The notes below the pieces were generated by a model, which had not been told where the DNA came from, did not search any database, and was given only the letters and a program-made list of their open reading frames with translations. 64,000 nt of DNA from the human T2T-CHM13v2.0 reference genome, Homo sapiens. The DNA is taken from assembly GCF_009914755.1 (NCBI RefSeq), contig NC_060942.1. One strand, written 5' to 3'. The translations under genes and the position numbers were made by a program. Within the stretch, counting starts at the first letter, position 1. Each line of letters begins with the position of its first letter. Below are positions 26,342 to 62,910 of this stretch, piece after piece.

Positions 26342-27159
26342 TATATACAACTTTTAAAAACACCAGCCAGCAATGCAATTTTTTCTCTTTAAAAAAAAAG
26401 AGATTGTTTTCAACCATTCTAAAAAATTTTTAAACTGTATGCAATGTGCACCCTAAAATTCCACCAGATAAGAGAGAAAGGGGAGATAAAATTTTAAATT
26501 TTAATCAACTGTAATTTTCAGAAAATAGTAAGATTATATATTAGAAAGAGGAGAAGCTGTCTTTATTTGCTAACCTTTATCTATGTACCATTTCCAACAG
26601 AACTTGAGGTCAAAAACCATGTTTTACCTCTTTAAAACCAGTGTTCATATGTACAAAATATGCAGTAAGGCAAGAATATGTGTGGACAACACAAAACACA
26701 ACTGTATATTTATGTGCTTTAAAATGAATTAATGTCACTGCTCTCACCTTATGCAAAGCTGGAATAGGAAAAAGGAGAGTTTGCATACTGATCTCTCGAC
26801 ATGCCTATTTAGTATTGACAAGACTTCTCCTTAAACCCAGTCTGATTCCAAACCACAGCGTTATCCGAGGGGAACTCCTGGCTCAGGCATGATGAATCAC
26901 CAGGCTGGAGTCCCGATTCTTGGGGTGGGTACTCTCCTGCTTGGTGCTTTCGTGCTTCTAAGTGGAAATGGCTTCTCCTACTATGGAAAAGGTCTACGTG
27001 ATAAACAAGCAAAGAAAAACTATCTGTGATCATGGGCCCTAGAAATGAAACATGTTGCTCTTTTTATTTCTTTCATATATTACTTGTCCAGGTTCAATTC
27101 TTTCCAGTGGGGCTATTATTGTCTGAGGCTCTGAAAGTTGTACTCATAGGTCAATCAAT

Positions 27160-27990
27160 GTGTATCAGTGACCTTCATCTCTGCAGCCTGTCAGTGCATA
27201 CCAGTGACCTTCACACCCATCAGTGTGTACCAGTGACCTTCACATCTATCAGTGTATACAGTGACCTTCACACTTAGTGTGTACCAGTGACTTTCACCTT
27301 CATACCCATCAGTGTGTACCAGTGATACCTTCACACTCATTAAGGTGTACCAGTGACCTTCACTTTTATGCCTCATTACAGTGTAACAGTGACCCCCCTT
27401 CACACCACATGAGTGTGTACCAGTGACCTTCACACATATCGTTGTGTACCAGTGACGTTCACCTTCATGGCCATCAGTGTGTACCAGTGACCACCCCTTC
27501 ACACCACATGAATGTGTACCAGAAACCTTCACACCCATCAGTGTGTACCAGTGACCTCCCCTTCACGCCCATCAGTGTGTACCGGTGACCTCCCCTTCAC
27601 ACCCATCACTGTGTACCAGTGACCTCCCCTTCACACCCATCACTGTGTACCGGTGACCTCCCCTTCACACCCGTCACTGTGTACCAGTGACCTCCCCTTC
27701 ACACCCGTCACTGTGTACCGGTGACCTCCCCTTCACACCCATCAGTGTGTACCGGTGACCTCCCCTTCACACCCATCAGTGTGTACCGGTGACCTCCCCT
27801 TCACACCCATCACTGTGTACCAGTGACCTCACCTTCACACCCATCAGTGTGTACCAGTGACCCTCACTTTCACAGCCATCAGTGTGTACCTTCACAGCCA
27901 ACAGTGTGTACTGGTGACCCTCACCTTCATACCCATCAGTGTGTACCAGTGACCTTCACCTTCACAGCCATTAGTGTCTACCAGTGGCCC
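27160..27990. repeat. Minisatellite (VNTR), ~30-33-bp unit cagtgtgtacc(a/g)gtgacctccccttcacacccat
   Basis: About 25 tandem units; near-perfect core at ~27538-27850 with degenerate flanks. Confidence 0.95.
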
Positions 27991-29479
27991 CCTCCCTGAG
28001 GCCTTCTCCGCAATTACTCTAGAGTACTCATTTTTGGGAGGATGCCTCAAACAGTTCACATTTAATACAACAGTCACACACAGGACACAAAAATCGTATC
28101 CTCCAGAATGCTTAGGACAATCTCCTTTCACCAAACACTTGCAGAACCATTTGCTTTTGATGAGTGAGACACGGCCATGAGCAATCTAGTAGACAGCTGA
28201 GTTGTGACCAAAAGAATTTCATCCCTCCTTCACTCATAATGAGACTTTGAAAGACGACCTCGCTGGCCATAAAGCTTAGTCTTGGGTTTTCACTTATTCC
28301 TCTGCAAAGTAGGAACACTCTGTTACTTCTAGAAGGATCTATTGATGATATGATAGCCATGTGATTCCATGTGAAGCACACAGCAGAAAGATGATACAAC
28401 TAGGAAGATTCTAATTTAAGTGGTCCTCTACTGTCCTTTACTGCTTTCAGCGATCCATTGCCTTCCTGTCGCCTGTATACTGTATATGATTTTCCACCTT
28501 TTTTATACCATTTAACATTGGTTCTTGTACAATTCTTTTTTACTTACAAATACTGCAATGCGATTTTTCCTTTTGTTATTTATGTAACAATATAAAATAA
28601 CATGTATATTTCCATAAGTATTCCTATAATACTAATGCATTACCATAAACTATGTTCTTATTTTATTTTTGGTTATGAATCTCTTTAGGTGTTTTTTTTT
28701 TCTAGAGGCACCTCTTAAGGTAAGGTTGGGTGTACCCAACAGATGCCTAATGCCACACAGAGTTTTGCCAATCACAGCTCTTTATCCCCACTTCTTTTTG
28801 AACCAACGTTTTGAGGTTGCCAGCATTCCTAGCAATCATGACACACTTGACTCAATGATTCTTGCCTGAGAAAGTTTTCTGTTTTTTCTTCATTAAGTCA
28901 ATGAGGGGAAAGATAAGTAAGCAGCTTCACATCCTTATATTTTGTCTTCTAACAGGAAAATAAATAGAGCCATTCGCCTTCATCTCCTTGAGCTAGCTGT
29001 CAGACTATATCGACTAATATGGAGTCCGTCTAGTTGTGTATGAGTCTGTGTACAATTGCATGTGTGTATTTGCAGCTTTGATCCGGAAGCCTTCTAAAAA
29101 AGAAACTGATGGTTGGCTGCCATCAACACATTTCCTTTCCTCCAGTTCTGTATGCAACCAAGCCTGTGTGTCAAGGGTTCCCCTAAGTGTGGAGCTCCAG
29201 TTCCAGCATCAAAGACAAAGCATATCAGAAATGCATTTACATTTGTGTTCTCTTGAGTCTCGCCTTCCATCTAAAAGGCATGAGTCATGCCAATCCACAC
29301 ACACGCGTACGCTCCACACTCCCAACTCAGTCCCTTCTTGATTCTAGACAAGCAGGAAACCAGTCTGTAAGTGGCTCCCAGTCGTTGGGGAATTTCTTAT
29401 CATGTTTATCTTATTAATAGAACAATTGTCCACAGCATTCCTGCCATATTCCTGGCCTGTGCCCATGTAGACCCTCATA

Positions 29480-33303: not shown

Positions 33304-33399
33304 GGGATGGGTATGTAGTAAATGCTACTAGACACCAATGAGCTTTCTCTTCAGAGCTGAGGCAGGCTTTCTCCTCCTGCCAGGATGTTCGCTGTTGAT

Positions 33400-35700
33400 G
33401 GATCCCAGCTGTGCCCTCCCCAGGAGTGTCCTGGTTGAAGGAAGCTCTCTTGCTCATGGTCATGCCCCTTGCTGAACACAGGGACCTGTGAACACAGGAC
33501 ACAGGGGCTGCTCAAAATGGGAGCATAGAGACCGGGTGCCCAGGATTAAGTCTGGGCCATGGGAGCTCAGAGCCCCCTGAAGGAGCCAAGGACAGCTCAC
33601 CTTCTCCTCTTATGGGTGCTGCTTCCCTCTCTTCTTATGGGTGCTGTTCTGGAGGGCACTAACCCCCAAAAATCCTGCATGCGAACATCTGCCTCTTAGT
33701 TCCTTCCCAGAAGAACTCAAACTAAGACATTTGGCACTGGGGATAGTCCAGGGAAGGTCACAGGAAGCTCACTCACCTTCCTCTGGCCAGCACTGACTGC
33801 CACCCTGGGGCACCCATGCCCCCTGGCAGGTTGCGGCCGGGAAACTACTGCAGATTTCACTGTGGTGCCTTTGGGCAGGTCAGGGTGAAGGAGTCCCATG
33901 CTGGGGGTGATAGCCCAGGCAGTCAGGAGGTTCTGGTGGAATAGTAGAATCATAAGGTCTGTGGAATGAAACTCTCTTCTGGAAGCCATCAATGCACTGC
34001 AGAAAGACAATTAAGGCCGCATTAAATGAACCTCCTATTTGATGTAAAATGTGAACACTACTGGGCCACCAAGGCAATGCAGAAAGAGACTTTCATCTCC
34101 TCCAGCAGGAGGGCCGGGACAGCCAAAGGTCACACCAGGACTTAATTTTGAAGGAAGCCAAAAAGAGGCTCAACCCTGGCAAGTCTAATGTCTCAAAGTC
34201 AAGGCCCTAAATGAAAAGAAGTGAAATCCTGAGATTGAGATAGGAATACCCGGGAACACTTTGAATCTGTCTCCTTCCCTGAGCCCTCAGGGTCTGCAGA
34301 AGTGGCCCTTCCTCCCTATGAATGACTCATGTTTCCACTAGCACAAGGTTGATGCAGAGGCCTCTGCCTTGTGGGACAATGTGTACTACTCTCAAAGCTC
34401 ACCTCCAGATGCCATCCTGGCCAACAGGGTCGGTAATGAGGGTCAAACCATAACATAACTTAGCCAGGTAAATTCACGTCAGTCAGCTAAGGAAGTAAGG
34501 TAGATTAAAGATGGTGACAAACTCTTTGCTACTCTTCCCATTAAGAGCTAAATCTAATCTCTTTTGCTTGTATCTGGGCTGGTTTCATGACTTGTTTGGC
34601 CAACAGAAAATAGAAGAATAGGATTTCTGGGGCTAGGGCATAAGAAGCCTTCTAGTTTCTACCGGAGTCTCTTGTAACATACTGTCGGGTAACTGTGGGA
34701 TGCCATATGAGCAGTCTGATCACCCACAGATCATCACACTGGAGAAGCCTTGCAGATGCCTGTCGAGACACCAGACTCATGAGTAAAGCTATCTGAGACC
34801 CTCCAGGCCAGCCCACTGTCTAGATAAACACCACCAAATGAACTCCAGTGATGTATGGAATAAGACTCACCTGGCCGAGCCTGGCTTGTATTCCTAACCC
34901 TGAAATATGTAAGCTATAATACAATTGTTGTGTTGAGCCACTACATTTGAAAATTATATGCTGAAGTTACTGCAGGTCACAGCCAACTTGCACCAGCAAA
35001 AGCCAGGAGACTCTGTAGGGGACTGGATATGCTGAGGGGGCTGCATCAGGATTGGTGGAGCATAAAGTTGGAAAAGCTCACTGAAATGAGAGCACTTTCC
35101 TCTAATAAAGAACTGAATATACAGCAAGGAGCATGGTAGGATGGTTCTTGAAAGCCTGGGTAGCAATGGCCCACATTAAATGAAGTTGAAATATCAGAAC
35201 TGCTGAGGCAGAGAATGGAAGAACTCATAAAAGGCTTGCAGAGGTGAACATACAAGAGTAGATATTCTATGTAAGGCCTCAACATGGGTATTATTCAATA
35301 TTTGTGGTGTGAATGCTTCACCCGCAACATGATGCCCTCACTCACGGAGTCCAACTAACTACTTGGTGACAAGCTGATTACATGGAGCCTTTCTATGCTG
35401 GAAGGGGCAGTGATTCGCACAGACAGGAATGAATACACTGTCCAAGTAAGGTTTAGGCTTTCTTCTGCCCACAGAGCCTCAGTCAGAACATCTGTCAGCT
35501 CTCATAGGGTTTGGCCATTAGACACAGTACTTCCTGCATTATTGCATCGGACCAACGCTCTGCTTTATAACAGAGGAGGTGGGAAGAGGATCTCCTGGTC
35601 CTGTCACACATCATACTACCCAATCGCATCCGACCTTTTAGACTGACAGAATGGTCTTCAAATGTGTAGATAAGCATCAACTTGGGCAAGATACCCTTTG
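33400..35700 (+). mobile_element. Ancient ERVL (LTR16/ERV3-16A3-like) LTR plus internal remnants
   Basis: LTR-like end 'ttcccagaagaactcaaactaagaca' followed by PBS-like 'tttggcactgggga'; degenerate integrase-like tract near 35600-35660. Confidence 0.5.
34495..34960 (+). mobile_element. MLT1 (G/H-like) MaLR LTR nested in the ERVL
   Basis: 'agattaaagatggtgacaaactctttgctactcttcccatt...ttgttgtgttgagccactacatttg'. Confidence 0.75.
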
Positions 35701-35969
35701 ATAGGTCTTTTTACATTGCTGGATTATGAAATTTAGATTGTCTAATAAGGTCTCTCAATAAAATACTCAACACAAAAATATCCTTCTCCACCCCACTTAT
35801 TTTGAAACACACAATTTCTTTGGCCACTTTCCTAGACTTCAGTGACAGCCTGGGTCAGGGGCTGGTCACGAAACTGGGAGAGTCTTGTGTCACCTCTGCC
35901 GCTCTTCTTTATCTAATTGGGTAAACTTCAGTCAGTCTAGGAAAATATATTCAGTGTTTTAGCTGGAAA

Positions 35970-36101
35970 TGTTTCCATTCCTGTACTTTATCCCTGATCC
36001 CGAGACACCCTATATAAAATAGGAGCTCCCACCTCTTCTGTGTCCTTAGCCTGCTTGATTTTCTTCTTAGCACTTGCTACTATACGATATGCCACATTCT
36101 C

Positions 36102-36134
<33 letters not shown>

Positions 36135-36280
36135 GCATTTTACACACACACAGACACAAGACATAAAACTCAAGATGAGCAGAGATTGATTTTATGTATT
36201 GCTAAATTCTCAGCATTTCAAATGCTATCTGGCACGTGGTAGACAATATCTTTTGAATGAGTAAATGAATGAATGAGAAC
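35970..36280 (+). mobile_element. L2 3' end with CT/CA microsatellite
   Basis: 'tctggcacgtggtagacaata...ttgaatgagtaaatgaatgaatg'. Confidence 0.65.
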
Positions 36281-36529
36281 AAGATAGCTGTAGGACAAAG
36301 AGAAGAAGAGAACATTTGTAAATCAGGAACAGACTAGGAAAATGTAACTCTTCCATGTTAAAGGTAGATTTGGTTGTTTTCATGAGGGCTCACCACCTGC
36401 AAGCACTTTCTAGGATTCCATTTAGTAATCACTCTCTGACTCCACTTTCTTGTCAGGTCCAGCCTCTTACTTGCTGTCATTCATTCTTTCAACACTTGTG
36501 GAAGGTTCATTATGCAAAAGTCAGGATCA

Positions 36530-36700
36530 TTTAGTGGAAAGGGTCAGACGGACTTAGCATCTGTGTGCCTTTGCTCAACTTAACCTCTCTGAGCCTTTTT
36601 TTCCTCATGTGTGGAGAAGGGAAATTATAAAATAGACAATATATATATAAAGCACCTAACCTGGCGTCTGGTCCACACAGGAACTCAATAAATGCCAGGC
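36530..36700 (+). mobile_element. MIR
   Basis: 'acttaacctctctgagcct...cctcatgtgtgg...aaagcacctaacctggcgtctggtccacacaggaactcaataaatg'. Confidence 0.75.
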
Positions 36701-37689
36701 TCTTGGGAAAATGGATGTGCCTTGCTTTTGAGGACCCTACTGTCTGATGGGCAGAACAAATTAGCAAGCTCCCAATGCAAGGCAGCCAGCGGGAGGGTGC
36801 AGGTCAATGCAGAATACAAGGCAATGGGGAGAAGGCTTCCCGACGGAGACAGCTTTCTAGGTGATTATGAAGGATGTGATGAGTTTCACAGGTAGAAAAA
36901 GACATCCTCAGTTCAGGGCACACAGGGGAGGCCCAGGCTGTGCCCTGGAAACAGAAAGCCACCTGATGCTGTGGAGTGTGGTGGGGAGGAGGCAACGGCA
37001 GGCACTACCATTCCCAGCAAGGTTCCTGGGGACCTGCTCCCTGCCGTGGCCTGCGAAGGACATTTGGTTATCTGTGTCCTCTGGCTGGATGTGTTTGGCA
37101 AGTAAAGCCCTATTCCATTCTTCTTGGCATCCACACTCTAAAGGGGTGCCTTACACATGGCAGATGCTGAATGCTATTGGTTGGGTCATTTGAACCTATT
37201 CCCTAATAGGAATCATGTCTGGAACCTTCAGATGGGGCCAGGAGTACTGGTAAGGCCACTCCATGACTGGGTGAACTTGCCTGCTCATCTGACCTCCCGA
37301 TCTACAATTTGTGCTGAGCGCTGGGAGAGGTCAGCCACAGTTTGAGCTCCTGGGTGGCAAACATGTTGGGTTCATGGACTGTTGCTTTGTTCTGGAGTTC
37401 TCTTGTGCCCTTATCTGTTCCCGTTAGTCCCAGTTACACTGTCTCTGGCATCTGTCTTTAGTCCAGTTGCACTGTCTTCAGCCTCTGATGTAGCCAGGCT
37501 GGCTCTGAACAGCCCTGGGACCTCTCAGTTTGTAGCACTCACAGCTGATACCAGAATTGACTTGCTAAACAACTTCATTATCAAATTGCCTTCCTATTAT
37601 TTTCCTTTTTAAATGTTTACAAGAAGAAATCCAGTTAATCAAAAATTGGCATAACCAGCTGAGATTTTAGTGAATTTCCTGAACTAAAA

Positions 37690-37784
37690 AGGCAGTAAAG
37701 TGGCTAATTAAGAGCATGGGCTTTGGGGGTTGGCCAGGCCTGGGTACCAGTCCTTCCACTTTTGATGAGACTTTAAACAAATTA
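37690..37784 (+). mobile_element. MIR 5' half, cut at a TA by Tigger3b
   Basis: 'aggcagtaaagtggctaattaagagcatgggctttgg...gatgagactttaaacaaatta' corresponds to MIR up to ...GTGACCTTGGGCAAGTTA. Confidence 0.75.
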
Positions 37785-38728
37785 CAATCATGCATCGCCT
37801 AACGACGGGGATGCCTTCTGAGAAATGCATCATTAGGCAATTTTGTCATTGTGTGAACATCACAGAGTGTACTTACACAAACAGATAGTAGAATCTACTA
37901 CACACCTAGGCTATATGGTATTGCCTATTGCTCCTGGGCTACAAACCTGGGCAGTGTGTGACTGTACTGAGTACTACAGGCCACTGTAACATAATGGTAA
38001 GTATCTGGGCTTAAACATAGAAAAGGTACGGTATAAATATGGGAAAATAATATACCTGTAAAGGGTAATAACCATGAATGGAGCTTGCAAGACTGGTAGC
38101 TGCTCTGGGAGAGTCAGATAGTGAGCAGGGAGTGAGTGGGAAGGCCCAGGACATCATGTAAATGACTGCAGACCTTATGAACACTGTATACTTAGGCTAC
38201 ACTACATTTGTTTTTAAAATTTTCTTTCTTCAGTAATAAATTCACCCTACCTTACTGTAACAGTTTTACTTTATAAACTTTTCAATTTTTTTAAACTTGA
38301 CTCTTTTGTAATGACACTTTGCTTAAAACACAAATACATTGTACAGCTGTACAAAAATATTTTTTTCTTTATATCCTTATTCTATAAACTTTTTTCTGTT
38401 TTAAAAATGTGTTACCTTTTTTTTTACTTTTTAACATTTTTTGTTAAAAACTAACAGACTAACACCACCGGGCCGGCCCTGCAGAGTTCCTACTCCCCCT
38501 TCCTGGCCCCTGGACTTGCTGCTGCTGCCACCGCTAGCACAATGACAATACTGTACTGTGCATAATCGCACGTGCTGGATTTTATATGACTGGCAGCACA
38601 GTAGGTTAGTTTATATCAACAGCACCACAAACGAGTGAAGTAATGTGTCGCACTATGACCTTACCAAGGCTACGACATCGCTAATTCATAGGAATTTTTC
38701 AGCTCCATTATAATTTTATGGGACCATC
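37785..38728 (+). mobile_element. Tigger3b (TcMar-Tigger) copy 1: internal deletion, right end missing
   Basis: TA|caatcatgcatcgcctaacgacgggg left terminus; colinear with the copy at 61629-62797; stops at 'ttatgggaccatc' about 55 bp before the right end. Confidence 0.9.
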
Positions 38729-38891
38729 TCATGGTAACCTCAAATCAAAAACATACAAAGGATAAGCAAAAAGTAAAAAGCAAAAAAATCACATCATATT
38801 AGAGAAAATCACTTTCACTAAGAGGAAGACAGGAAAAAAAAAAGGAAGAGAAGGCCACAATGCAACCAAAAAACAAACAAGATAGTAAGAG
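38728..38891 (+). mobile_element. L1M inter-ORF fragment
   Basis: 'ctcatggtaacctcaaatcaaaaacataca...agagaaaatcactttcactaagaggaagacagg' matches the old L1 spacer upstream of ORF2. Confidence 0.75.
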
Positions 38892-39640
38892 CCGGGAGTG
38901 CAGGGAGGTGTGGGGGGCGGGATTCGGTGGTGGCTATCCGGGGCCAGACAGCCCATGAATAGAGGCCAGGTTGGGTGCACTATCGGGGGCTACACAGCCC
39001 GTGGCAAGAAGGGGTTTGGGGCGATACCCATCGCAGGGTGGTGGGGTGGGTTCTGGGCACCATCGGGGGCTGCACTGCCGTCAGCGGGGGCTAGTTAGGG
39101 GCACTATCAGCTGCTGCATTGCCTGTGGCGGGGGTCGGGTTTGTTGCGCTATTGGGACTACACTGCTGACAGTGGGATACTGCTTAGGGGCGCTGTCAGG
39201 GGCCACACTGCCCGCGGTGGGGTGCAGGTTGGGTGCACTAACTGGGGCGTCATTCCCCACGGCTAGGGAAAGGTTGGGGTTGCTATCCGCTATCCGGGGC
39301 TGCTCCCCATCGTGGGGAGCGGATTGGGGGCCTTAAGGATCCGTGGCTGCACTATTCACTGTGGGGAGCAGGCTGTAGCGCTCTCTGAGACGTCACTGCT
39401 GGGGTGTCACTGCCTTCAGCGGGGGGCTGGTTAGGAGTCCTATCCATGGCTGCATGGGTCACCGCAGGGAGAGGGTTGGGGGCGCTATCCGGGGCTGCGC
39501 TGCCCACAGCAAGAGCAGGTTGGGGCGCTATCTGGTGCTGTAATGTCGGAGGCAGGGATGTGTTGGGGTGCTATGGGCTACTACACTGCGTGGCGAGGAG
39601 GTGGGGTGTTAGGGGCGCTATCGGGCTGCCCTGCCAACAG
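38892..39640. repeat. Degenerate G-rich tandem array, ~45-bp unit (ggttgggggcgctatccggggctgcactgcccgcggc-like)
   Basis: Recurring g(c/t)(g/a)ctatc...gggct(g/a)cactgcc motif at ~45-bp spacing; roughly 15 units. Confidence 0.8.
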
Positions 39641-40740
39641 GGGCAGAGGTTGCAGCAACAGCAGTGGTCTCCAAGAAAGGAGGCTTCCTCCTCTCCCCAG
39701 ACTCCAGACTCTAGAGGGCGACCTCCTCCTGCTCCTGCTCCAGTGGCACGCGTGCACAACGTTTCCACGGGAATCCTGGGTACGGCAGGGCCCCCACATC
39801 CGCCGTGATTCCCAGGCCTGCTTCCTCTCTCTCTGTGTTGCAGAGACCGGCTGGGACCCCTGAGCATGCTGGACACGGAGTAGCGGACACCACAGGGGGA
39901 CAGGGCCCTGTGGGTGGAGGCATCAGGATCGGAAACAGCACTTGGGTGGGAGGGCTGGCTGGGTCTGAGTTCCTGCTGGTTCTGCTCCCCAAGGAGCGCA
40001 GCCCTGGTGGGCCCAGCAGTTCCTGTGGACTGGGGAGCCGGGCAATGTGGTGTTTCCAGTCCCCACTCTAGGCCCCAGTTCCTGGCCAGCTTGGGCCAAA
40101 AGGAGAGGCTGGACTTTGGTGGGTGGGTATGAGTGCCTTCATTGAAACCGGCCCCTGCCACCCAGTGGCCAGCATGACAAGGTGAGGCTCTAATGCTGCT
40201 ACTCCCTGCATCCTCCTCTAGGATTTTCTGGCTTTGCCCACCCAGCTGTTACCAGCCAGGAGAAGGGTGAGTCACCTGCATGCTGCATGCTGGAGGCTGG
40301 AGCTTGCAGATAGCCTGCGGCTGCAACTCGCCTTGCTGGGGTTGGTGGCAGCTATGAGAACTACAGCGCCCAGGAGCGGTAGGAGGGCGGCGAGCTGCGG
40401 CCACAGCAAGGGCACGGCTGGGCAGTGGCCAGGTGGTAGGAACATTGTAGGGTGGGCCAGTGCATTGAGGGAAGCAGCCATGGTTGTATTGGCATTGGTG
40501 CTAGTGATGGCAGTGACAGCAAGTATGCAGGCCGGGAAGGGGGAGTAGGAGCGCTTCGGGGCCTGCCCTGCCAGGCCTTGGATGAGTAGGGTGCTTCGGG
40601 TGGGTAGGAAGCTTTGGGTGCTGTACCTCAGGCCTCAGTGGCAGCAGTGGAGGAACAGCCAGGGCAAGGAGGAGGAGTCCTCCTTCTCCTGCAGTCTCTG
40701 CAGGGCACCCTCCTCCTGCTGGCGCTTCAGCCAGGTGTGA
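38892..40740. promoter_or_regulatory. GC-rich, CpG-island-like segment (possible decayed promoter or first exon)
   Basis: Abrupt rise in GC and CpG content relative to both flanks; function not demonstrated. Confidence 0.45.
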
Positions 40741-41031
<291 letters not shown>

Positions 41032-42120
41032 TAGGGGGTGACTGTGTATCTTTTTGCTTTTTTTGTTTGTTTGTTTGTTTGTTTATATTGGACTTACTCA
41101 AATTTCATGAATCAGGGAGGGGAAAAAAGGTATCATAATAGGTCTTCTAATTCCCTCACGTGTTCTTTTTCCTTCCTTCTAGTCTGTGTTTTCTTCTCCT
41201 TATCATCATCTTCTTGTTCCTCCTCCTCCTCTTGTTTCCTTTTTCCCAAGCAATGGCCTTAACAACAAACCAAAACTGAGTTTTAAGAATAAACTACTTG
41301 TTACTGTGTTGTATTTTAAAAATAGTCTGTCCATTACCATGTTTTAGAGATGAGGAAAAAAATTATTTGCGTAATTATTTAGTTACTTGAGTAGCTGTGC
41401 TTTCATGATCCTGTTAATGTGTTGGAAGTAGTTATTCAGGAACTTAATAAACAAAGCACAAATAAAATACTGGTAGCAAACAGCCATTTCATCTCTCTCA
41501 CATAGTAGTCTGAAGACATGCAAGAGGCAGAGGGGTAATAAGTTCCAATTTATGAGATCATTAAGTGAACCATACTCCCTTCATATTATTTCTCTGCCAC
41601 CATTTTCAGGAGTATTGTCATCTGCATGAGCAAACCTGGTTCATCACTACATATTTGCAACAGGAAAAGGAAGGGGAGGATCATGTATAACATTTTTAGG
41701 CCAAGATTCACAACCAAAAACAAGACTTTATTAATGTTGAGCCCTCTTTTATTCCTAGTATTACTACCTTTGTTATGAACCTTTTTCTTTTTCTTATTTT
41801 CATTTTCAGTGATTACTCTAGAAGTTTATGCATTTTATTGACTACTTTAAAAAATCTATATTGTATCGTATTTTTTAAGCCCACAGAAATGTGTAAGGCC
41901 TATAATTTTGACACTTTTAAATTATTTTATACTGTCAATATATGTAAGTATATGCATAAGTACAACCAGATAGCTTATTTTGAAGAGATAGTGTCTAAAT
42001 TTTTGTCCAGAGTAGATTGGTTGCAGTTTCTGAGGTGTGTTTCTCAATACATTGCCTCAGTTTTAAAGTCCATAGAAATTTGAATACTGTTTAACATATA
42101 GTCCTTTGTTTATAGGCTGT

Positions 42121-43291
42121 TATCGGGGAACCTGCCCCGATATTCAAGTAGGTTCTTTTCTATTTTCCCTAAGCATCAGCCAGCTTGAGAAATAAAGGGA
42201 CAGAGTACAAAAGAGAGAAATTTTAAAGCGGGGCAATGCCAGATATCGGGGGACCTGCCCCGATAATCACGTAGGTTCTTTTCTATTTTTCCTAAGTGTC
42301 AGCCGGCTTGAGAAATAAAGGGACAGAGTACAAAAGAGAGAAATTTTAAAGCTGGGCGTCCAGGGGAGACATCACACATTGGTAGGATCCGTGATGCCCC
42401 ACAAGCCACAAAAACCAGCAAGTTTTTAGAGGGAGTGTGTGAATAGGTGTGGGTGACAGACATCAAGTACTTAACAGGGTAATAGAATACCACAAGGCAA
42501 GTGGAGGCAGGGCGAGACCACAGGACCACATGACCGAGGCGAAATTAAAATTGCTAATGAAGTTTCGGGCACCATTGTCATTGATAACATCTTATCAGGA
42601 GTTGGTTTTGAGATCAACCAGTCTGACCAAAACTTATTAGGCGGGAATTTCCTCTTCCTAACAAGCCTGGGAGTGCTATGGGAGACTGGTCTATTTCATC
42701 TCTGCAGCCTCAACCATAAGAGACAGGCGCACCTGGGGAAGCTGTTTATAAGCCTATACCTCCAGGCACGTATTCTCTTTCTCAGGGATGTTCCATGCTG
42801 AGGAAAAGAATTCAGCGATATTTCTCCCGTTTGCTTTTGAAAGAAGAGAAATATGGCTCTGTTCTGCCCGGCTCACCAGCAGTCAGAGTTTAAGGTTATC
42901 TCTCTTACTCCCTGAATAATTGCTGTTATCCTGCTCTTTTTTCAAGGTGCCCACATTTCATATTGCTCAAACACACATGCTGTACAATATGTGTAGTTAA
43001 CGCAATTATCACATGGTCCTGAGGTGATATACATCCTCCTCAGCTGACAGGATTAAGAGATTAAAGTAAAGACAGGCATAGGAAATCACAAGGGTATTGA
43101 TTGGGGAAGTGATAAGTGTCCATGAAATCTTTACAATTTATGTTTAGAGATTGCAGTAAAGACAGGCATAAGAAATTACTAGAGTATTAATTTGGGGAAC
43201 TAATAAATGTCCATGAAATCTTTACAATCCACATTCTTCTGCCATGGCTTCAGCTGGTCCCTCCGTTTGGGGTCCCTGACTTCCCACAACA
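42121..43291 (-). mobile_element. MER11 solo LTR (HERV-K11/HML-8) with duplicated U5 end
   Basis: Minus strand starts TGTTGTGGGAAGTCAGGGACCCCAAACGG and ends CCCCGATA; 6-bp TSD GGCTGT at 42115-42120 and 43292-43297. Confidence 0.93.
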
Positions 43292-45644
43292 GGCTGTTTA
43301 ATATTTCTAAAGACTAAAGACATCACAGCCCCTTTTAAAATTCAGTAATATTAATAAAATTTGAAATATACAGTGCTAGAATACAACAAATTCAGAGGAA
43401 AAATTGTTAAACTATATAGCTGTAGAGCAGGAATGAAATCCAGGTTCTAAGCTATAAGGGGGCCATGAGCTTTATAAAATACAGGTGCATCAGTGACTGG
43501 GCATAGAGTCGGCAGAATTACAGGATAGTTAAGAGAGTGAGCTGTGGAGCTTAACTCTTGTGAACATGAATTTTTAAACTGCACAGTGCCTCAGTCTATC
43601 CATCTTTACCATGGGGACAGTACTAAGTTTTTGAGTTTTTTCCAGTTGACTGAATTGTTTCCCTAGTCTTTCTTGTTGCCACTCTTGATGCCCACATGAG
43701 AAGACCTAAGGTAATTTCTCACAGGCCTGGGACTCCTTGGCAAAACAGAAGGTGCCACAGACCCCATTTTAGGAGAAACCTCTGTTTTCCTCATGGAATC
43801 CCAGGAAGTGTAAGCAGAAAGTTCCCTCTCAAAACCTAAGGCTGTGCTCAGTTTTGCCTTGCTTTACCTGACCTTTTTGATTTGGGCAGACATCAGAAAT
43901 TAGTAGTGGGGAGAGGGCTAATAAAAGTTATGGATATGAAGATGTATCTATGGTAAGAAAGGTTAGGAAGGAAATAAATTTTATATGAGAGAGGATCTTG
44001 TATGGCCAATTCTTGTCCTAAAGTAGGACTAATTATTTAGAAAAGAGGGAAATACAGGACAAGTCAGAAATGCATAAAATGGGAAAGAAAAGGTACAACT
44101 GCTAGATCATCTCCTGCCTAGAAGTATTGAGTGATGTTTGCATAAAGAGGCTCTAATTAATTGGCTTCAAAAAAAAATGAAGGCTCTTAAATATTTTGTC
44201 AGAAAATAGAAACTCTAATGCCTTTTAGTTCATGTGACTGCAGTAATCTTTGGGAAATACAGTTTTAAAATTATTGGTAAAACGAAAATATCTTCAAAAT
44301 TTAGACATTTGGTCTAAATTAAGTCAGAGGTTAAATTTGCTAAGTGCTTTAATGTCATACACCGCTTCTTTGACTTTGGAAAATTGTCCAGTTTACCTGG
44401 TTTGAAGCCATTAGATTTCTAGGTAAGGCCTGGGGTCAGGCGGAGTTAGCCATGCCTCCTAGCTGTGCTGGAAAGAGTCAGACTTTATCTGCAGTTCTGT
44501 CTTGCTTCCTAGACTATGCACCTGGTACGTAACTAAAACTGCTTACACACACACACACACGCACACACACGCACGCACACACACATAAAAACAAAAAAAA
44601 GTGTTTTTCATTTTTAAAAGACATGGTAATATGGTTTTAAAAAAAAACCAAGTGTTGCCTAATTTAGAAAGTTAAAGAATTACTTTTAGTTGGAAGAAAA
44701 TAAAGTCTAAGCAAGTTATAGGAAGTTTATGAAAATTAACTTTGTAAAGAATTCTGTCTGTAAGAAAGTTGACAAAAATTAAAAGGGTATTATTTAGTTC
44801 TTCCATAAATTAAATATTAAAACAAAAGCATACTGAAACAGGGCCCATATGTCAAAATAATAGGGCTTTTTTGAACATTGATCCGTTCTTTAACAAGAAA
44901 AAAATATAGAGTTATAAATAGTTATGAAAATCTTACTTTATACTCAAATTAATTAAAACTAGATAGATTCATAACATTTTATTAAAAAGTAGCTTTAGCA
45001 TTAAAGATGCACTAATACAAAAATAAAATTTGGTTTTCTTTTTAAAAAGATTTTTATGTAATATTGAGAGACAATAAAAGATTTGTTTGCCTTTTGAGTA
45101 AATTAAAACAAAAAGGAGGGGAGAGAGAAGTGACAGATTTAGTTGGCCTCATGCTATCTCTACTAAGTTTTGTTTGGAAAGCTAAGTCTCCTATCAGAGT
45201 AAAGGTTTTTCCCTTTCTAAAATTTTTGAGTTATCATTTTTGGCTAAATAAATGACTTACATTGACCTGGGATTCTCTTTTGTGATATCCAGTGTTTTAA
45301 GCCTTTCATATTTGACAAACTTTCCAAGATCAAATTCTAAGGTTAAAAAAAGACTCAGCTTATTTGATATATTAAAACCATATAGAAAGCATTGTCAAAT
45401 ATAAAATGGTGTTTAACTTTAGGTTATATTCATACAAATATGTTATTGTATAAGATTTCTATAATTGTGTCTCAGCATACGTTATCAGTAATAATTATAA
45501 GTCTTATGTTAAATTGTTTTGTGTCATAGAGATGACCAGATTTCCTTGTTGATTACATACTAACTATGCCAGTCCTGAGAGTTTTGTCACCCACAGACAA
45601 TTGCTGTCTTGTTTTAATCCTTCTCAAAAGGTGGTTTATAATTA

Positions 45645-46980: not shown

Positions 46981-48029
46981 GAGCCAGTATGGCAAATAAT
47001 TATTCCTACTGCACTTTATGCAAATAATCAGGTCAAATATAATAAGACTAAGACTTACTTTGCAAGTAAATTTGACTTACTATGATTTATTTTTATTAAC
47101 GGGGGACTGGAGAGAGAAACATGATGTTTGCAAAAACTGTAGTACATGTGTTGTTAGTTGTTCTTGAGTTTTTATTATTTTCTACAGTTTGAACTAAATC
47201 CTGAATTTTTTGTGGGCCGTAGGTCTCCAAACTAATGCTTTCAGATTTTTCTTCCATTTTTCTGTCTTGCACTCAATGAAATTGCTCCTACCTTTTAACT
47301 GAGGTCCTGCAAGCTTAAGCTTACTACTTGTAATATAGGCAGCAAAAAACATGTCAGATTGTCACCACCTTCCTCCTCTGTAACTGAAGAGGCATAGCCC
47401 ATCTGCGTGCCACCTCCTGATATAGAAAACAGCTGTTTAACTGAACTGATCTAGTTTCAGAACTAGGAAGCTGACTGAAAATTATGGGGCAGTATATTTA
47501 AATTTGTTCTTTCCTGTATATCCCAATCTGTCTGTCTAACAACTTCTGACCCAAGTCTCTCTCTGCTAGTAACCCCATGTCTGATTGGTTCTCGGAGCTG
47601 TCCATCTGGATCCCTCAGAGCTTAAGAGCTATTCTACTAAGACTTTCACTGTTTATCCTGGAACTTGTTATTTACCTTATAGTCCACTTTTGTGTGCTAA
47701 AACTATAGATGAGAATGCCATCTTGGGTGCTCAAGGATTCATCTTTGTAAATTGCCACCAAAGCCAAAAGGAAGAGACAATAAGGAAGCCTCTTGTCCCA
47801 CTGGGAAATGACATTGCAGAAGTTACTAAAATAAAGTCCTTTGATGGGCAGGATACTATGCTCAGGTTACTTATCTAAAGTAGCTAAAAATTTAAGCAAA
47901 GAATTATCCATTTCTTCCCTAGTCTGATATAATATTTTATGATTCAAAATAAGCTTGGGGTCAATAAGTAAGAGCTATCTGCAGGTTTAAAACAATAATA
48001 GTAATGCTAATAATAGCCACAGTAGTTTC

Positions 48030-48240
48030 AGTTAATAATGCTGATAATCATGTATGAGGCACTGGATTAAATGCCATATATACATACATTACTTATACAC
48101 AACCACCTTTGAAGGATATATTATTATCCTCTTTTTCATACAGGAAAACATACATGGTGATAAGCAATGCTCCCAAAGTCACACATCTAGCAAGTAGAAA
48201 AGCTAGGAATTAAACCCAGTCTTGTGGGAATCTAAAGCCT
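48030..48240 (-). mobile_element. MIR
   Basis: 'ttattatcctctttttcatacaggaaaaca...cccaaagtcacacatctagcaagt'. Confidence 0.7.
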
Positions 48241-48297
48241 ATCTTTTTTTCTCATTGTCAGCCACCCATGGCTTGTATTCATTAAAAAAAAAGTTTA

Positions 48298-48616
<319 letters not shown>

Positions 48617-48724
48617 TTACCCATTTGAAGCTATCTTTTTTCCCTCTGCCCATACTAATTAAAAATAGCATCAAAATACACTAGAGGTGAAAAGAAGAAA
48701 AAACCCGACGCATGTAATTGTAAA

Positions 48725-48946
48725 CAACCTCTACCTCCTGGGTTCAAGTGATTCTCCTGCCTCAGCCTCCTGAGTAGCTATGATTACAGCGCACACCATC
48801 ACACCCAGCTAAATTTTTGTATTTTTAGTACAGACAGGGTTTCACCATGTTAGCCAGACTGGTTTCAAACTCCTGACCTCAGGTGATCCTCCTGCCTCGG
48901 CCTCCCAAAGTGCTGGGATTGCAGGCATGAGCCACCGCGCTCAGCC
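48725..48946 (-). mobile_element. AluS lacking its 3' end
   Basis: Begins abruptly at 'caacctctacctcctgggttcaag' with no poly-T. Confidence 0.88.
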
Positions 48947-50326
48947 TATTGGCAGCATTTTAAACATTATCTTACTAATACATAAAATAATGGGGCATCC
49001 CATAATTCACAGTGCCTTACATTAAGTGGGATATGGTATAATAGAACAGGCAGTTCTACTCATATGATTGGCATCTAAATACATATTCATTCTTAGAAGT
49101 ACCACAAAAAAGAGGGCTGAAATGAAAATAACAAACTTTGTAAACAAAGTAATTCTTACTTTTTCAAAAAACTTAAAGCCAAAGAAAACTCAGCATTCAA
49201 ATGAATAGGTACAGCTCTTTTTTAAATACTTAGATGTATAGAATGTATTGACTCAGGTATTTCTGATAATAGTAATATTTAAGACTGTTACATATTTTCA
49301 GGAGAGCATTTAAAGGTTATTTTTTACAAATATTTTCTAACTTCAGAAATGCTTTCATTTGAAAAAAGGGAATAAAAGCTTCAATTGAGATTCAGTCCTA
49401 ATCCTCCATTTTTAAATCTCTCAGCTTGCTCAGGCTGGGCAGGTAAACATGAAATTTTTAAGGATGGAAGGGTCCTGAGAGATGGTAGAATGTGTCTGCT
49501 ACATAATAGGTATTTGGCTTATGTTGGAGAAATAAATGGATTGAAAGAATGAATACATAGAGCTGAAGAGTTCATTGTTATTGTTTGCATATGTGTAATA
49601 AACCTGTGTATAATAAAAATATATATAAAATAAAATGTATGCATAAAAATCTACAAACACACATAAAAATATCCTCTTTACTTTTGAAGAGGCTAAAAGT
49701 TCACAGAAGATAACAACAGACAAAAATAAAATAGTGAGAAATTATTTTGGCTCGTGCCAGATTCATATTCCTTCTCCTCCCAAGGATTATTTCATTAATC
49801 CTAAACTTTTACTAGAAGTTTTATACATGCTTATTGCAGAGATCCACAGATAAGAAAAAAAAATTCACTTATAATACACATGCCAAGAAAGAGCAAATGT
49901 TACCATATTTTTTTGTGTGTGTATATATGGCTAACAAAGACACATACTCTGTTTACGTGTATGTGTAATTGAACCCATTGATATACCAAAGTACATCTTC
50001 ACACACCAACTGACACCTTCAAAGTTTCCTTATTACAACATCTTGTGAATTTTATGAAATTTATTTATGGCATCCATTATATAGGTTCTTTGTAATACAT
50101 TGCTATTTTAAGCAGTACTGAGAAAAACAAATTGCATGACTCCATCTCAAAAAAAAATAAAATAAAATGGATACTGAATTTTACCTGAATAATTTTCAGC
50201 CCAGAAAATAACCTATTATGGGAATTATTTCTTTCATTATGTATATGAAAAATGAAGTGCTGTATATACTTAATTTTGTTAGTTAAATCACTTTAAAATG
50301 GTTTATAAAGTGCTCTATAAGGGAAA

Positions 50327-50825: not shown

Positions 50826-50860
50826 TTCCCCCCTTTGGTGCTTTTTATAAAGGCAATATT

Positions 50861-53030: not shown

Positions 53031-53039
53031 TAATCTGAT

Positions 53040-58491: not shown

Positions 58492-58511
58492 TTCCACTCT
58501 TGCGACGCAAG

Positions 58512-59175
<664 letters not shown>

Positions 59176-60492
59176 AACTTATAGTATAAAGGTATTAGAT
59201 GAAGCCAAGAAGAATGTTTCTGACAGGAACAGTCACAAGAAGCAGAAGGCAAAAAAAAAAATGTATATTGATAATTAAAATTAGCATGTAGAATCTCTAA
59301 AAAATGCTTGCAAATCAACAAGGTTTTTTTCTACAGAACTTATCAGAGCTTTTCAAAATACTAAAATGCTTTGTGATGCTTCAAAGACTCTACAGATTTA
59401 CCCAAAGTTAGTGCACCTCGGTGCGTCTCTGCTGAGGCTAAACCATGCCACCCTTCAGGACATCCCACCAAGTGGATCTTTCCAGCCTCCCCTTATTTCA
59501 ATGTTTCATGGCTTTCCTTTCTACATAAACAGTATCCACTATCACTTAGGTCAGTGAGGTTTGGAGCTACATTTCATAGTCCCTGATTCAAACGCCAATA
59601 GAACTACTAATAGGAGCTTAAAGACTTGCAGCCACTTCTGGATAGAGGGAGATAATGGGAAGGTAGAGCCATCTACAGGAGACATGTGGTACTGCACAAC
59701 AAGAGCCGTGAGGAGCAGGTGGGCAAAGGGACTGAAAAATGCATCACAGCACCTGGTAGAAATGGCTCTACGCCCTCTTTATTTAACATAGAGATTTAGC
59801 AACGAGGGCAGGGTTTTCAAGAGCAGACCTTTTGTTTTTGTTTGATGGGGTTGGGTGGAGAGACGTGGTCTTGACCACAATTTATGTTATGACAACATGT
59901 GTGAAGAAGAGAGGATATTTAAAGTAGGTGTTTCCTTTGCAGGCTTGAATGGGCATTCGACTTATACACAAAAGTGCACCCATTTTCAGTGTTTCCATAT
60001 CAGCACCAATGTCATTTAACTGTAAGATTCTTTTTACCATAAACACTTGGGATGCTCAATGGTTTAAAGGACATTCTACACAAAAGTTTGAAAGCTCTTA
60101 ATTACAGCAACTAAAACCTCACAATGGTTTTCTAGATATGTCTTTTGTGTAGTATTTTGAAAAATGGATTTTTCTTCCAAAGAGGTTAGGACAATAGCAT
60201 TTATGCCATAAGAACTCTGTTTTTTTGGACCACATTTTGTGATAAAAAGCAAATGAGCTTTGCATTTAGGAGCTCCAGGAAATCCTTGTTGCCCTTAGAA
60301 ATCTGCCCCCTCACCCCGACAAAGGGCCAGACAGCTTGGAGGTAGGGAATATCCCCCTCCATAGGCTCACCAAGACGTGCAGCTGGCTGTATGTTCTTTA
60401 CTGATGTCCTGTGAGCCCTTAAGGTATTTCAACAAGGAGCATCTTGATTTTCTGTGGATTTATGGAAGAAAATGTATCTCTCCAAATGTGTA

Positions 60493-61626
60493 TAGTAGTT
60501 CCTCCTTATCTGCAGGGAATAGTTCCAAGACCCCCAGTGAATGCCTAATACTGCAGATAGTACACAACACTATATATGCTATATATTTTTTTACTATACA
60601 TGCATATATACATACCAGAAATACAGTTTAATTTATAAACTGGGCACCATACGTGATTAACAACCATAACTACTAATAAAATAGAACAATTAAGACAATA
60701 GGCTGTAATAAAAGTCATGTGACTGTGGCCTCCCTTTCTCTCTCTCAAAATATCTTACTGTTCTGCACTCACCCTTCCTGTGGTAATGTGAGATGATACG
60801 GTGCCTACGGGATGACATGAAGTGAGGCGAATGGAGACATTTTGACATATTGTTAGGCTACTACTGCCCTCCTGATGATACATCAGGGAGAGGATCACCT
60901 GCTTCACATGGCCCCAGAGCATCGCACCATGACAACGTATTTTTTGCTGGGTGTCAGGAGCAGACGATGCTGATGTTTGGGGATCCTGGAGAATTGAAGG
61001 GTTTTTCTTTTTTGTTTTTTTGTTGTGTTATTTTATTTATTTTTTTTTTTTGCCAAGACCTGCTGGAAGAACATTGCAATCAGATGTTGTGTCTTTATTT
61101 TCAATTCATCAAAGTGTTGCTGCAGAGATTATAATTCTTCAGTGAGAATATGAGTAATTTTAACACTGCATTCCATCCTAAGATATGCCATAATTTGGTT
61201 CTTTAATGTCTGTGCAATTTGAAACACTTCAGCACACTTCGATTATGTCCATATTGCTGGTTCTGCTTCATTTCTTCATCTTTCTCTGCAGACGACTCAA
61301 CAAATTCTTCCAAATCCTCATTTGTTAACACTTCTTGATGTCCTTCAATATCTTCTGCCACTTCAGCAAGCATGTCAGCAACCCTTCTCCACCAACCTGT
61401 CTTGCTGCACGAATGATTTTCCTAACTTCTCCACTGACCCCAGAGAGGCTTTTAAAATCATTCATGGCTTCACTCCATAAGTTCCTGTAGCAGGCATCTA
61501 CAATTTCTGGTTTTAATTCATCCAATGCAGCTTTGAAGAATGTTATTGCATTAGCAATAGTGAATGGTTGCACTGCATTATGTCCAGATTAGGGTCTGCA
61601 TCAATTGCTGATAAAATGTGATCACA
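60493..61626 (-). mobile_element. Tigger7/MER44-like DNA transposon with transposase C-terminal remnant
   Basis: Terminus 'tagtagttcctccttatctgcagggaatagttccaagacccccagtg'; ORF 61325-61573 (FTIANAITFFKAALDELKPEIVDACYRNLW) resembles a pogo/Tigger DDE domain. Confidence 0.75.
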
Positions 61627-61628
61627 TA

Positions 61629-62797
61629 CAGTCAGTCATCAATGAACAACATAGATACATTCTTAGAAATGTGTCATAAGATGTTTGTCTCTTTGCATGA
61701 ATGATGAAAGCGCATTTCCACAGACTTAGATGGAACAGCCTACTACACACCTAGGCTGTATGGTAGGGCCTATTGCTCCTAGGCTACAAACCTGTACCAC
61801 ATGTTACTGTACTGAATACTGCAGGCAATTGCAACACAATGGTATTTGTGTACCTAAACATATCTAAACACAGAAAAGGAACAGTTAAAAATAGGGCATG
61901 AAAGATAAAATACGATATACCTCAAGAGGGGACTTGCGATGAATGTAGCTTGCAGGACTGGAATTTGCTCTGAGTCAGTGAATGAGTGGTGGCTGAATGT
62001 GAAGGCTAGGACATTACTGTGCACTACTGTAGTCTTTATTAAACACCGTACACTTAGGCTGCACTAAATATGTTTTTAATTTTTTCTTCAATAATAAATT
62101 AACCTTAGCTTACTGTAGCTTTTTGACTTTATAAACTTAATTTTTCTTAATTTTTTGACTTGTAATAACAGCTTAAAACACAGGTTGTACAGCTGTACAA
62201 AAATATTCTATAAGCTTTTTTCTTTTCTTTTTTTTTAGCTTTTTAATATTTTTTTTTTTGTTAAAAGCTAACACACAAACACCACCTGCATTAGCCCATG
62301 TAGGCCTACACAGGGTCAGGATCATCAACATCACTGTCTTCCATCTCCACATCCTGTCCCAGTGGAAGATTTTCAGGGGCAATAACATGCATGGATCTGC
62401 CATCTCCTGGAATAACAGTGCCTTCTGAACACCTCCTGAGGGATCTGCCTGAGGCTGCTTTACAGTTAACCTTTTTTAATAAGTAGAAAGATTACATTCT
62501 AAAATAACAATAAAAAGTACAGTAAACCCATAAACTAGTAACGTAGTTATTTTCATTATTAAGTATTATATATTGTACCTTATATTGTGTGCTATAGTGT
62601 TACACCCCTGGCAGCACAGTAGTTTTGTTGATACCAGCACCATCACAAACACATGAATAATGTACTGCACTGTGACATAGAAAGGCTACAATGTCACTAG
62701 ATGATTCGTGCTTGTCCAGCTCCATCATAATCTTATGAGCCCACCATCCATACCGGGTCTGTCACTGACCAAAGCCTTGTTAGGCAGTGCATTACTG
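61629..62797 (+). mobile_element. Tigger3b copy 2, near full length, probably chimeric
   Basis: TA|cagtca... to ...gcagtgcattactg|TA; colinear with copy 1. Confidence 0.9.
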
Positions 62798-62799
62798 TA

Positions 62800-62910
62800 C
62801 TTCTATGAACCTCAGTGTCCTCTTCTATGAAAATGGAGTGATGTAGTACTATGTCAGGGGATTATGTGAGAATTAATTGGGATGATGTATGTAAAGATTC
62901 TGAGCAATTT
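62800..62910 (+). mobile_element. MIR 3' half
   Basis: 'cttctatgaacctcagtgtcctcttctatgaaaatggagtgat...ggggattatgtgagaattaattgggatgatgtatgtaaag' corresponds to MIR from CTTAACCTCTCTGAGCCTCAG onward. Confidence 0.8.

What the first reader, a model, noticed from the sequence alone, without database searches (positions are those of the whole stretch)
38470..38551. Inverted 82-bp copy of the downstream GC-rich block replaces ~280 bp inside Tigger3b copy 1
Seen: this insert is the reverse complement of 40486-40568 (about 78% identical by eye, many CpG-type changes). It sits where copy 2 has its intact internal segment (~62287-62568), about 180 bp before the left breakpoint of the 25-kb block. Inference: a template switch into the incoming sequence during the same event (FoSTeS/MMBIR-like), tying the cargo to the rearrangement. 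The divergence implies an old event or a paralogous donor.
Basis: partly seen in the sequence, partly recalled or inferred. Interest (0 to 1): 0.7.

Follow-up and report, generated by a model that had tools for sequence, protein, structure and literature searches.

The report
Junction scar of transposon-guided duplication
This 82-base inverted piece is real and lies where two dead Tigger transposon copies carry swapped halves around a 24-kb patchwork of duplicated DNA, so it is likely a repair scar from an old event in which a probably circular piece of DNA recombined into chromosome 18; it has no apparent function.

Summary
Confirmed: 38470-38551 is the reverse complement of 40486-40568 (65/83, 78%) and stands in place of 281 bp of Tigger3b. 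But it belongs to a low-copy GC-rich repeat: the local copy ranks 36th of 39 genome hits. A tree puts the insert in the small 18p/chr15 subgroup that includes the local copy, without naming the template. One native Tigger3b split a MIR-like repeat (37784|62800). The block's right end is copied from chr7:35.66 Mb with its own Tigger3b. The two window copies are reciprocal hybrids: copy 2 is chr7-type to about 62302, then not (17/48 against 1/38 rare letters); copy 1 turns chr7-type at about 38455 and, more weakly, again at 38552-38727. So the insert starts at the exchange point itself, not 180 bp before the breakpoint; 38729 is the head-to-tail joint of the incoming DNA (5-bp microhomology). 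Best reading: a circular (or tandem) donor entered by Tigger-Tigger recombination, and repair synthesis slipped for 82 bases. Precedent: SVA-SVA circle integration (PMC9132208). Timing needs primate genomes. Intergenic, no function seen.

The parts
37743..37784 (+). Left half of a MIR-like repeat, ending in the TA target site; native single-copy flank
   Evidence: Profile of 46 local copies reads across 37784|62800, positions 56-195, 36.0 bits; 3 of 1500 random joins reach this; 33320-37780 has no long paralogue. The name MIR is recalled.
37785..38454 (+). Left part of the native Tigger3b (acceptor)
   Evidence: Shares 4 of 52 rare chr7 letters, like unrelated copies (61 of 811)
38455..38469 (+). 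Short donor-type (chr7-type) Tigger stretch: left exchange zone
   Evidence: Letters at 38455 and 38466 shared with chr7 copy and copy 2, absent from 16 and 15 outgroup copies
38470..38551 (-). The 82-bp insert: inverted piece of the GC-rich low-copy repeat, in place of 281 bp of Tigger3b
38552..38728 (+). Right part of the donor (chr7-type) Tigger3b, cut about 65 bp before its end
   Evidence: Sister to chr7 copy 91/95, unstarred; 4 of 14 rare letters against 20 of 235 pooled
38729..38733 (+). Head-to-tail joint of the incoming DNA, 5-base microhomology TCATG
   Evidence: Present at the matching place in both the chr7 Tigger and the chr9 L1-like copy
38728..38891 (+). L1-like fragment from the spacer in front of the GC-rich repeat in this duplicon family
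   Evidence: Best non-self hit chr9:106645809, 170 bits against next 156, lies beside GC-repeat and spacer sequence shared with chr18:12.22 Mb
38890..40754 (+). Left-truncated arm of the GC-rich low-copy repeat (REP522-like by recall)
40486..40568 (+). Local counterpart of the insert (candidate template)
40755..41014 (-). Truncated Alu at the same site as in chr18:12.225 Mb (and, at its left end, 12.209 Mb)
41018..45031 (+). Duplicon sequence continuing from the arm, with an inserted LTR-like element at about 42121-43293
47719..50095 (-). Pieces of an ANKRD-family locus; 47719-48706 is 91% identical to chr18:12.26 Mb (ANKRD62 region by recall)
58512..58997 (+). Fragment of an NFKB2-like processed pseudogene whose longer copy is at chr18:12.255 Mb (88%)
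59310..61629 (+). Segment duplicated from chr7:35.661-35.665 Mb, including the host transposon of the donor Tigger3b
61630..62302 (+). Left part of the donor (chr7-type) Tigger3b
   Evidence: 17 of 48 rare letters; tree 100/99; 4-base insertion near 62298-62302 also in chr7
62303..62799 (+). Middle and right end of the native Tigger3b, with TA
   Evidence: 1 of 38 rare chr7 letters; flank is not the chr7 host element
62800..62898 (+). Right half of the MIR-like repeat; single-copy flank

Best explanation
The 82-bp piece sits at the point where two Tigger3b copies carry swapped halves, and it is likely a template-switch scar made while a probably circular (head-to-tail) 24-kb piece of DNA recombined into a native Tigger3b on 18p. 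Steps. (1, shown) The flanks at 37784 and 62800 are halves of one older repeat, so one Tigger3b stood here. (2, shown) Copy 2 is chr7-type up to about 62302 and not after. (3, moderately shown) Copy 1 is native up to about 38420-38454, then chr7-type, and its right piece is chr7-type: the donor element is split, right end first. (4, inferred) The donor was closed head to tail at 38729 through a 5-base microhomology. (5, inferred) A break or gap in the native element was repaired on the donor element, then roughly 87-93% identical; both ends took donor letters at 62272-62286. (6, inferred) The left end, after about 15-50 bases, switched through a 2-base microhomology to the opposite strand of a GC-repeat arm about 2 kb away on the donor, copied 82 bases and re-entered the Tigger 281 bases further on. 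Whether the template was the arm now at 40486-40568 or a sister arm of the 18p donor region is open, about even.
For: Hybrid copy 2: 17 of 48 rare chr7 letters on the left, 0 of 24 in the middle, 1 of 14 on the right; Fisher p 1e-4. Trees: left copy 2 + chr7 100/99, right copy 1 + chr7 91/95. Non-CpG difference of copy 1 right to chr7 13.4%, like copy 2 left to chr7 12.7%, against 19.3% between copy 1 left and copy 2. At chr7 the host element runs on across the Tigger in 4 of 4 host copies compared; in the window it does not. Split MIR-like repeat. Insert falls in the 6-row 18p/chr15 clade, 98/96, also without its first 10 bases; two other placements rejected, p-AU 0.01 and 0.0005. Random co-location of such a piece within 2.1 kb of a copy: 5e-5 to 4e-4 for 40-300 copies. 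Lower bound in time: donor letters in copy 2 run to about 62302, inside the stretch missing from copy 1, so a single-copy donor did not yet carry the deletion. Upper bound: no non-CpG private change shared with the local arm.
Against: The chr7 origin of 38552-38727 rests on 4 of 14 letters (p 0.026 against background; 0.056 against copy 1 left and 0.33 against copy 2 right); chr7 is only 10th of 39 hits for that piece. AU tests did not reject the opposite pairings (p 0.09 right, 0.08 left, 0.34 middle). The donor-type zone in copy 1 is 2 letters. No intact donor exists in this genome: chr7 parts differ 11-13% and 18p parts 5-8% at non-CpG sites, so the block was built in stages. The left flank alone gave no profile hit and the join skips 5 profile positions. 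The right joint of the insert shows no clear microhomology. Insert + local arm is not the best tree (p-AU 0.063 and 0.055).
Confidence: 0.6

Rival explanations
1. No circle: one replication event with serial template switches (FoSTeS/MMBIR) laid down short pieces (donor Tigger, inverted arm, donor Tigger right end, L1 piece) before a long copy that ended by homology in the native Tigger.
For: Four joints within 420 bp, with 2, about 0, 5 and possibly 4 bases of microhomology. Template switches over 7-32 kb are described (PMC4888836, passages). The insert is still a scar of the same event.
Against: Needs two jumps of over 20 kb that happen to restore the donor element's order; a head-to-tail donor gives this with one exchange.
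Confidence: 0.17
2. A separate, slightly later gap-filling repair inside the left Tigger hybrid captured 82 bases from the arm 2 kb away, as in single-copy Pack-TIRs.
For: Pack-TIR fillers mostly come from under 5-15 kb away with a median 2-base microhomology, and Tigger3b cases exist in human (PMC8277862). The start inside a 130-base exchange zone would occur by chance about 15% of the time (own arithmetic).
Against: Rare: about 2 per 10,000 elements in that survey. Shares none of the local arm's non-CpG private changes, so it cannot be much later.
Confidence: 0.15
3. The insert and deletion were already in one of two Tigger copies of a tandem donor, or are the remnant of an inverted second arm of the repeat.
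For: These arms often stand as inverted pairs (chr18:12.209/12.224, chr22:32.58 and 32.67 Mb), and the insert has the orientation of a left arm. It is 84% identical to both 18p arms against 79% to the local one.
Against: Tigger sequence lies in order on both sides; no other scored locus carries the joint; a single-copy donor is excluded by donor letters to 62302.
Confidence: 0.05
4. Two unrelated Tigger3b insertions and a chance fragment of a dispersed repeat.
For: Copies 1 and 2 are only 70% identical; the best matches of the insert lie on other chromosomes.
Against: Hybrid pattern, split flank, subgroup placement, co-location odds.
Confidence: 0.03

Closest known systems
[quoted passage not shown]
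   Same: Cassette flanked by two reciprocal chimeric elements, acceptor target site at the outer edges, donor order permuted.
   Different: Dead DNA transposons instead of SVA; far older; patchwork donor no longer present; a deletion with an inverted templated insert at the exchange point; no gene carried.
Circular-DNA-mediated segmental duplication pairs (Chicote 2020, PMC7450558; parts 1-2 of 4 and a supplement search)
   Same: A-B to B-A flip in the same orientation; closing joint with microhomology only.
   Different: Those integrate without homology and are 93% identical or more; here entry is through a homologous repeat and identity is 81-91%.
Single-copy Pack-TIRs (Tan 2021, PMC8277862; parts 1-2 of 10, passages, supplement searches)
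   Same: Inner part of a TIR element replaced by nearby sequence, short microhomology, no transposition needed.
   Different: Filler is 82 bp (their floor is 100), is itself a repeat, and the flanking element is a hybrid whose right end lies 24 kb away.
MMBIR/FoSTeS templated insertions at breakpoint junctions (review PMC4888836; passages)
   Same: Short, inverted, copied from rearranging DNA, at a junction, microhomology at one end.
   Different: A fixed, tens-of-millions-of-years-old germline case; begins from homeologous invasion rather than microhomology alone.

Membership tests
TE-recombination circle integration (NPIPB9 type) | Two reciprocal chimeric elements flank the cassette | tested here: met
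   Strong for copy 2 (17/48 against 1/38), moderate for copy 1 (4/52 left, 4/14 right)
TE-recombination circle integration (NPIPB9 type) | Acceptor target site and flanks at the outer edges | tested here: met
   TA at 37783-84 and 62798-99; split MIR-like repeat
TE-recombination circle integration (NPIPB9 type) | Donor element's own flanks at both inner edges | tested here: inconclusive
   chr7 host element present left of copy 2; the donor's right end is cut about 65 bp short, so the other inner flank is absent
TE-recombination circle integration (NPIPB9 type) | Empty site with one element in an outgroup species | not testable with these tools
   Only this one human assembly is held
Circular-DNA-mediated SD pairs (cSDP) | A-B to B-A flip, same orientation | tested here: met
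   Donor Tigger right end precedes the block, its left part ends it; (moderate support)
Circular-DNA-mediated SD pairs (cSDP) | Closing joint without long homology | tested here: met
   5-base microhomology at 38729-38733, longer than their 1-2 bases
Circular-DNA-mediated SD pairs (cSDP) | Integration without homology | tested here: not met
   Exchange lies in register inside two Tigger3b copies
Circular-DNA-mediated SD pairs (cSDP) | One intact ancestral copy, over 90% identical | tested here: not met
   Pieces map to chr7, 18p and a dispersed duplicon at 76-91%
Single-copy Pack-TIR | Internal non-TE sequence of 100-5000 bp | tested here: not met
   82 bp of a repeat with at least 39 other places
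Single-copy Pack-TIR | Flanked by two parts of the same element | tested here: not met
   Flanks form a hybrid without its right end
Single-copy Pack-TIR | Parental copy nearby and unambiguous | tested here: inconclusive
   Same subgroup 2 kb away, but template not resolved
MMBIR/FoSTeS templated insertion | Short copy of rearranging DNA placed at a breakpoint | tested here: met
   Starts 15 bases after the first donor-type letter
MMBIR/FoSTeS templated insertion | Microhomology at the switches | tested here: inconclusive
   2 bases at the left joint using sister arms, none clear at the right
MMBIR/FoSTeS templated insertion | Made in the same event as the rearrangement | not testable with these tools
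   Only bounded indirectly
REP522 repeat | Match to the Repbase/Dfam REP522 consensus | not testable with these tools
   No repeat library; name recalled from size, GC content, inverted pairs and ANKRD neighbourhood; papers found give no sequence or coordinates

The most novel reading that the evidence does not exclude
A circular duplication intermediate entered the primate germline by recombination between two dead Tigger3b DNA transposons, and the 82-bp insert records a polymerase template switch at the crossover itself. This would extend repeat-guided circle integration from SVA to DNA-transposon fossils, show homologous entry and microhomology switching in one event, and imply a hidden class of old duplications recognisable by reciprocal chimeric repeats.
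Probability: 0.45. Interest if true: 0.55.

Novelty: new variant of a known kind. Interest (0 to 1): 0.38.

Why it matters
How circular duplication intermediates re-enter chromosomes is unsettled: one survey found no homology at entry, and the SVA-SVA case was left as possibly unique (PMC7450558, PMC9132208). This locus would be a further, much older case through a different repeat class, and it suggests a simple screen: same-family repeats at both ends of a duplicated block, tested for swapped halves. The insert itself is an ordinary kind of scar, lies between genes and shows no sign of function.

Tried and rejected
Local copy as best match: rejected. Copies 1 and 2 as a duplicated target site: rejected, 19% non-CpG difference and unrelated flanks. 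The Tigger-type piece beside the chr15 arm as the source of copy 1's right end: rejected, 68% identity and no better than copy 2. A third human copy of the chr7 segment (the missing donor): none among hits. Structured RNA: no Rfam match in 37500-41500. First attempts to show the split MIR failed: wrong left edge and one weak hit, a 3-copy profile with no hit, genome searches that returned only self; the 46-copy profile worked. chr18:12261001-12271000 had no non-Alu match to the window. A 1155-column tree of 13 arms left local, 12.209 and 12.225/chr15 as an open fork, and dropped the insert as too short. Naming the GC repeat from papers led nowhere. PMC3821386 was not held, so no rate of templated inserts at junctions is cited.

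Full report
Observation. The inverted match is real: 38470-38551 against 40568-40486, 65 of 83 columns, E 5e-11; 0 of 500 shuffles reach its score. It replaces 281 bp that Tigger copy 2 has at 62287-62567. Of 17 substitutions, 3 touch a CG in either copy and 9 under a wider filter. The family names Tigger3b (from the finding; its 1231-bp consensus length is), MIR, L1, Alu subfamily, REP522, ANKRD62 and ANKRD20A/36 are recalled, not from a library call.

What the insert is a copy of. A genome search gave 39 other places (40 of 41 candidates scored); the local copy is 36th, behind chr15, chr21, chr14, chr13, chr2 and chr18:12.225 Mb at 83-86%. The source is a GC-rich, roughly 2-kb low-copy repeat that often stands in inverted pairs and heads an ANKRD-type duplicon. 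The window's arm is cut at about 38890, since three paralogues run on to the left. I aligned 37 paralogous stretches plus the local one and kept 20 non-redundant rows for a tree. The insert falls in a 6-row clade with the local arm, chr18:12.209, 12.225 and two chr15 copies (98/96), also when its first 10 bases are dropped. Placement with two other groups is rejected (p-AU 0.01, 0.0005; 0.028 after trimming). Insert plus local arm as sisters is neither best nor rejected (0.063, 0.055). The insert shares none of the local arm's non-CpG private changes. So the template was an arm of this subgroup, near the time the subgroup split; which arm is open.

The surroundings. Left of 37785 and right of 62799 the DNA is single-copy. 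A profile of 46 MIR-like copies from local DNA, built without these flanks, reads across the join 37784|62800 (positions 56-195, 36.0 bits against 24.9 for the right flank alone; 5 positions skipped); 3 of 1500 random joins score as high. One Tigger3b therefore stood here. Between the two present copies lies a patchwork: an L1-like piece whose best hit lies in the spacer of the same duplicon on chr9; the arm, with an Alu at the same site as chr18:12.225 Mb; further duplicon; inverted pieces from chr18:12.25-12.26 Mb at 88-91%, including a fragment of an NFKB2-like pseudogene that is longer there, which gives the direction from 12.25 Mb to here; a proviral stretch; and 59310-62302, copied from chr7:35.66 Mb together with its own Tigger3b. 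At chr7 that Tigger sits inside a host transposon that continues on both sides (4 of 4 host copies), so chr7 keeps the older order.

The two Tigger copies are hybrids. I aligned them with the chr7 copy and 16 outgroup copies (12 picked by likeness to copy 2, 4 by likeness to copy 1's right piece; L070 was left out of the left and middle trees because its left part is not Tigger). Counting letters of the chr7 copy found in at most 1 outgroup: copy 2 shares 17 of 48 on the left, 0 of 24 in 62303-62567 and 1 of 14 on the right (Fisher p 1e-4); copy 1 shares 4 of 52 on the left and 4 of 14 on the right; pooled outgroups share 7.5%, 4.7% and 8.5%. Trees give copy 2 + chr7 on the left (100/99) and copy 1 + chr7 on the right (91/95). 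Against this: the AU tests did not reject the opposite pairings (0.08-0.34), the right-piece contrasts are weak (p 0.056 and 0.33), and chr7 is only 10th of 39 hits for that piece. In the exchange zone, copy 1 has native letters at 38267, 38290 and 38419 and donor letters at 38455 and 38466, while copy 2 keeps a 4-base insertion found also in chr7 near 62298-62302, with 2 of the 4 bases differing. Both hybrids thus carry donor letters at the same short stretch, and the insert begins at its edge.

Junctions. Left joint of the insert: CC shared with sister arms. Right joint: no clear microhomology. 38729-38733: TCATG in both the chr7 Tigger and the chr9 L1-like copy. 38891: possibly 4 bases with one paralogue.

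Mechanism. A donor whose ends were joined at 38729 (circle, or tandem copy: the two cannot be told apart) exchanged with the native Tigger3b; repair synthesis at the left end slipped to the opposite strand of a repeat arm, copied 82 bases and returned 281 bases on. The hybrids and split flank are shown; circle, break and same-event timing are inferred. Non-CpG differences are 5-8% for the 18p pieces and 11-13% for the chr7 pieces, 10% for the L1 piece and 12-15% for arms and insert. With recalled primate calibrations this is roughly 30-55 million years; the spread is unexplained and points to staged assembly or conversion among arms.

Known cases. Damert 2022 (PMC9132208, passages) describes the same layout with SVA elements and leaves open whether it was unique. 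Chicote 2020 (PMC7450558, parts 1-2 of 4) describes circles entering without homology; its chr18 supplement rows are at 15.16-15.24 Mb. Tan 2021 (PMC8277862, parts 1-2 of 10 and passages) describes gap-filled TIR elements; its human chr18 row is a MER2 in LINC01255, not this element. I found no description of this locus in searches on REP522, circular intermediates, templated insertions, ANKRD62/18p11, Tigger and Tigger3b (listings and abstract starts only, except papers named). Not seen: Tan's relaxed list of 199 human cases, Damert's supplements, bioRxiv supplements and most subscription papers; these could hold the locus. A preprint on circle transposition was read in passages (10.1101/2022.06.22.497135) and added nothing specific.

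Verdict. Real feature, ordinary kind of scar, but it marks an unusual and readable event. New variant of a known kind; interest 0.38.

Noticed in passing
window 58512-58997: Broken NFKB2-like processed pseudogene fragment (ankyrin repeat; best single-stretch natural match NF-kappa-B p100); the copy at chr18:12254831-12255319 runs on at both ends.
   Followed up: partly
window about 50350-58500: Old endogenous retrovirus-like stretch, 70-78% to many dispersed copies; an LTR-like part at its left end, none evident at the right, where the pseudogene fragment abuts.
   Followed up: no
window 42121-42234 and 42244-42357; 43053-43228: Tandem duplications (93%, 86%) at the start of and inside an LTR-like element that the paralogues lack.
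   Followed up: no
window 48970-50095: ANKRD-family piece that matches chr2, chr9, chr21 and chr18:14.34 Mb copies at 70-79% but not the fetched chr18:12.195-12.271 Mb, though its neighbours match there at 91%.
   Followed up: partly
L010 693-1555 (chr15:18.86 Mb) and L007: A separate Tigger3-type piece with an Alu sits directly after the GC arm in both chr15 copies, 200 bp from the stretch matching the insert; appears to be an independent insertion.
   Followed up: yes
window 38894-40754 against chr18:12.225 Mb: The arm differs 15% at non-CpG sites while the adjoining Alu and flank differ 6-8%, and the 12.225 arm groups with chr15, which lacks the Alu: sign of exchange among arms.
   Followed up: partly
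window 18065-18358 and 19038-19329: Direct repeat of 294 bp at 93.5%.
   Followed up: no
window 27154-27992: Degenerate tandem array, C-rich on the + strand.
   Followed up: no
just left of the window, inside LINC01255: A published Pack-TIR (MER2 carrying RARB intron sequence, hg38 chr18:11492932-11493536; PMC8277862 supplement).
   Followed up: no
L012-L017, L049 (chr18:12.20-12.26 Mb): Three arms of the GC repeat in both orientations, an inverted 1.7-kb pair at 88% and a degenerate tandem array at 12.249-12.252 Mb.
   Followed up: partly
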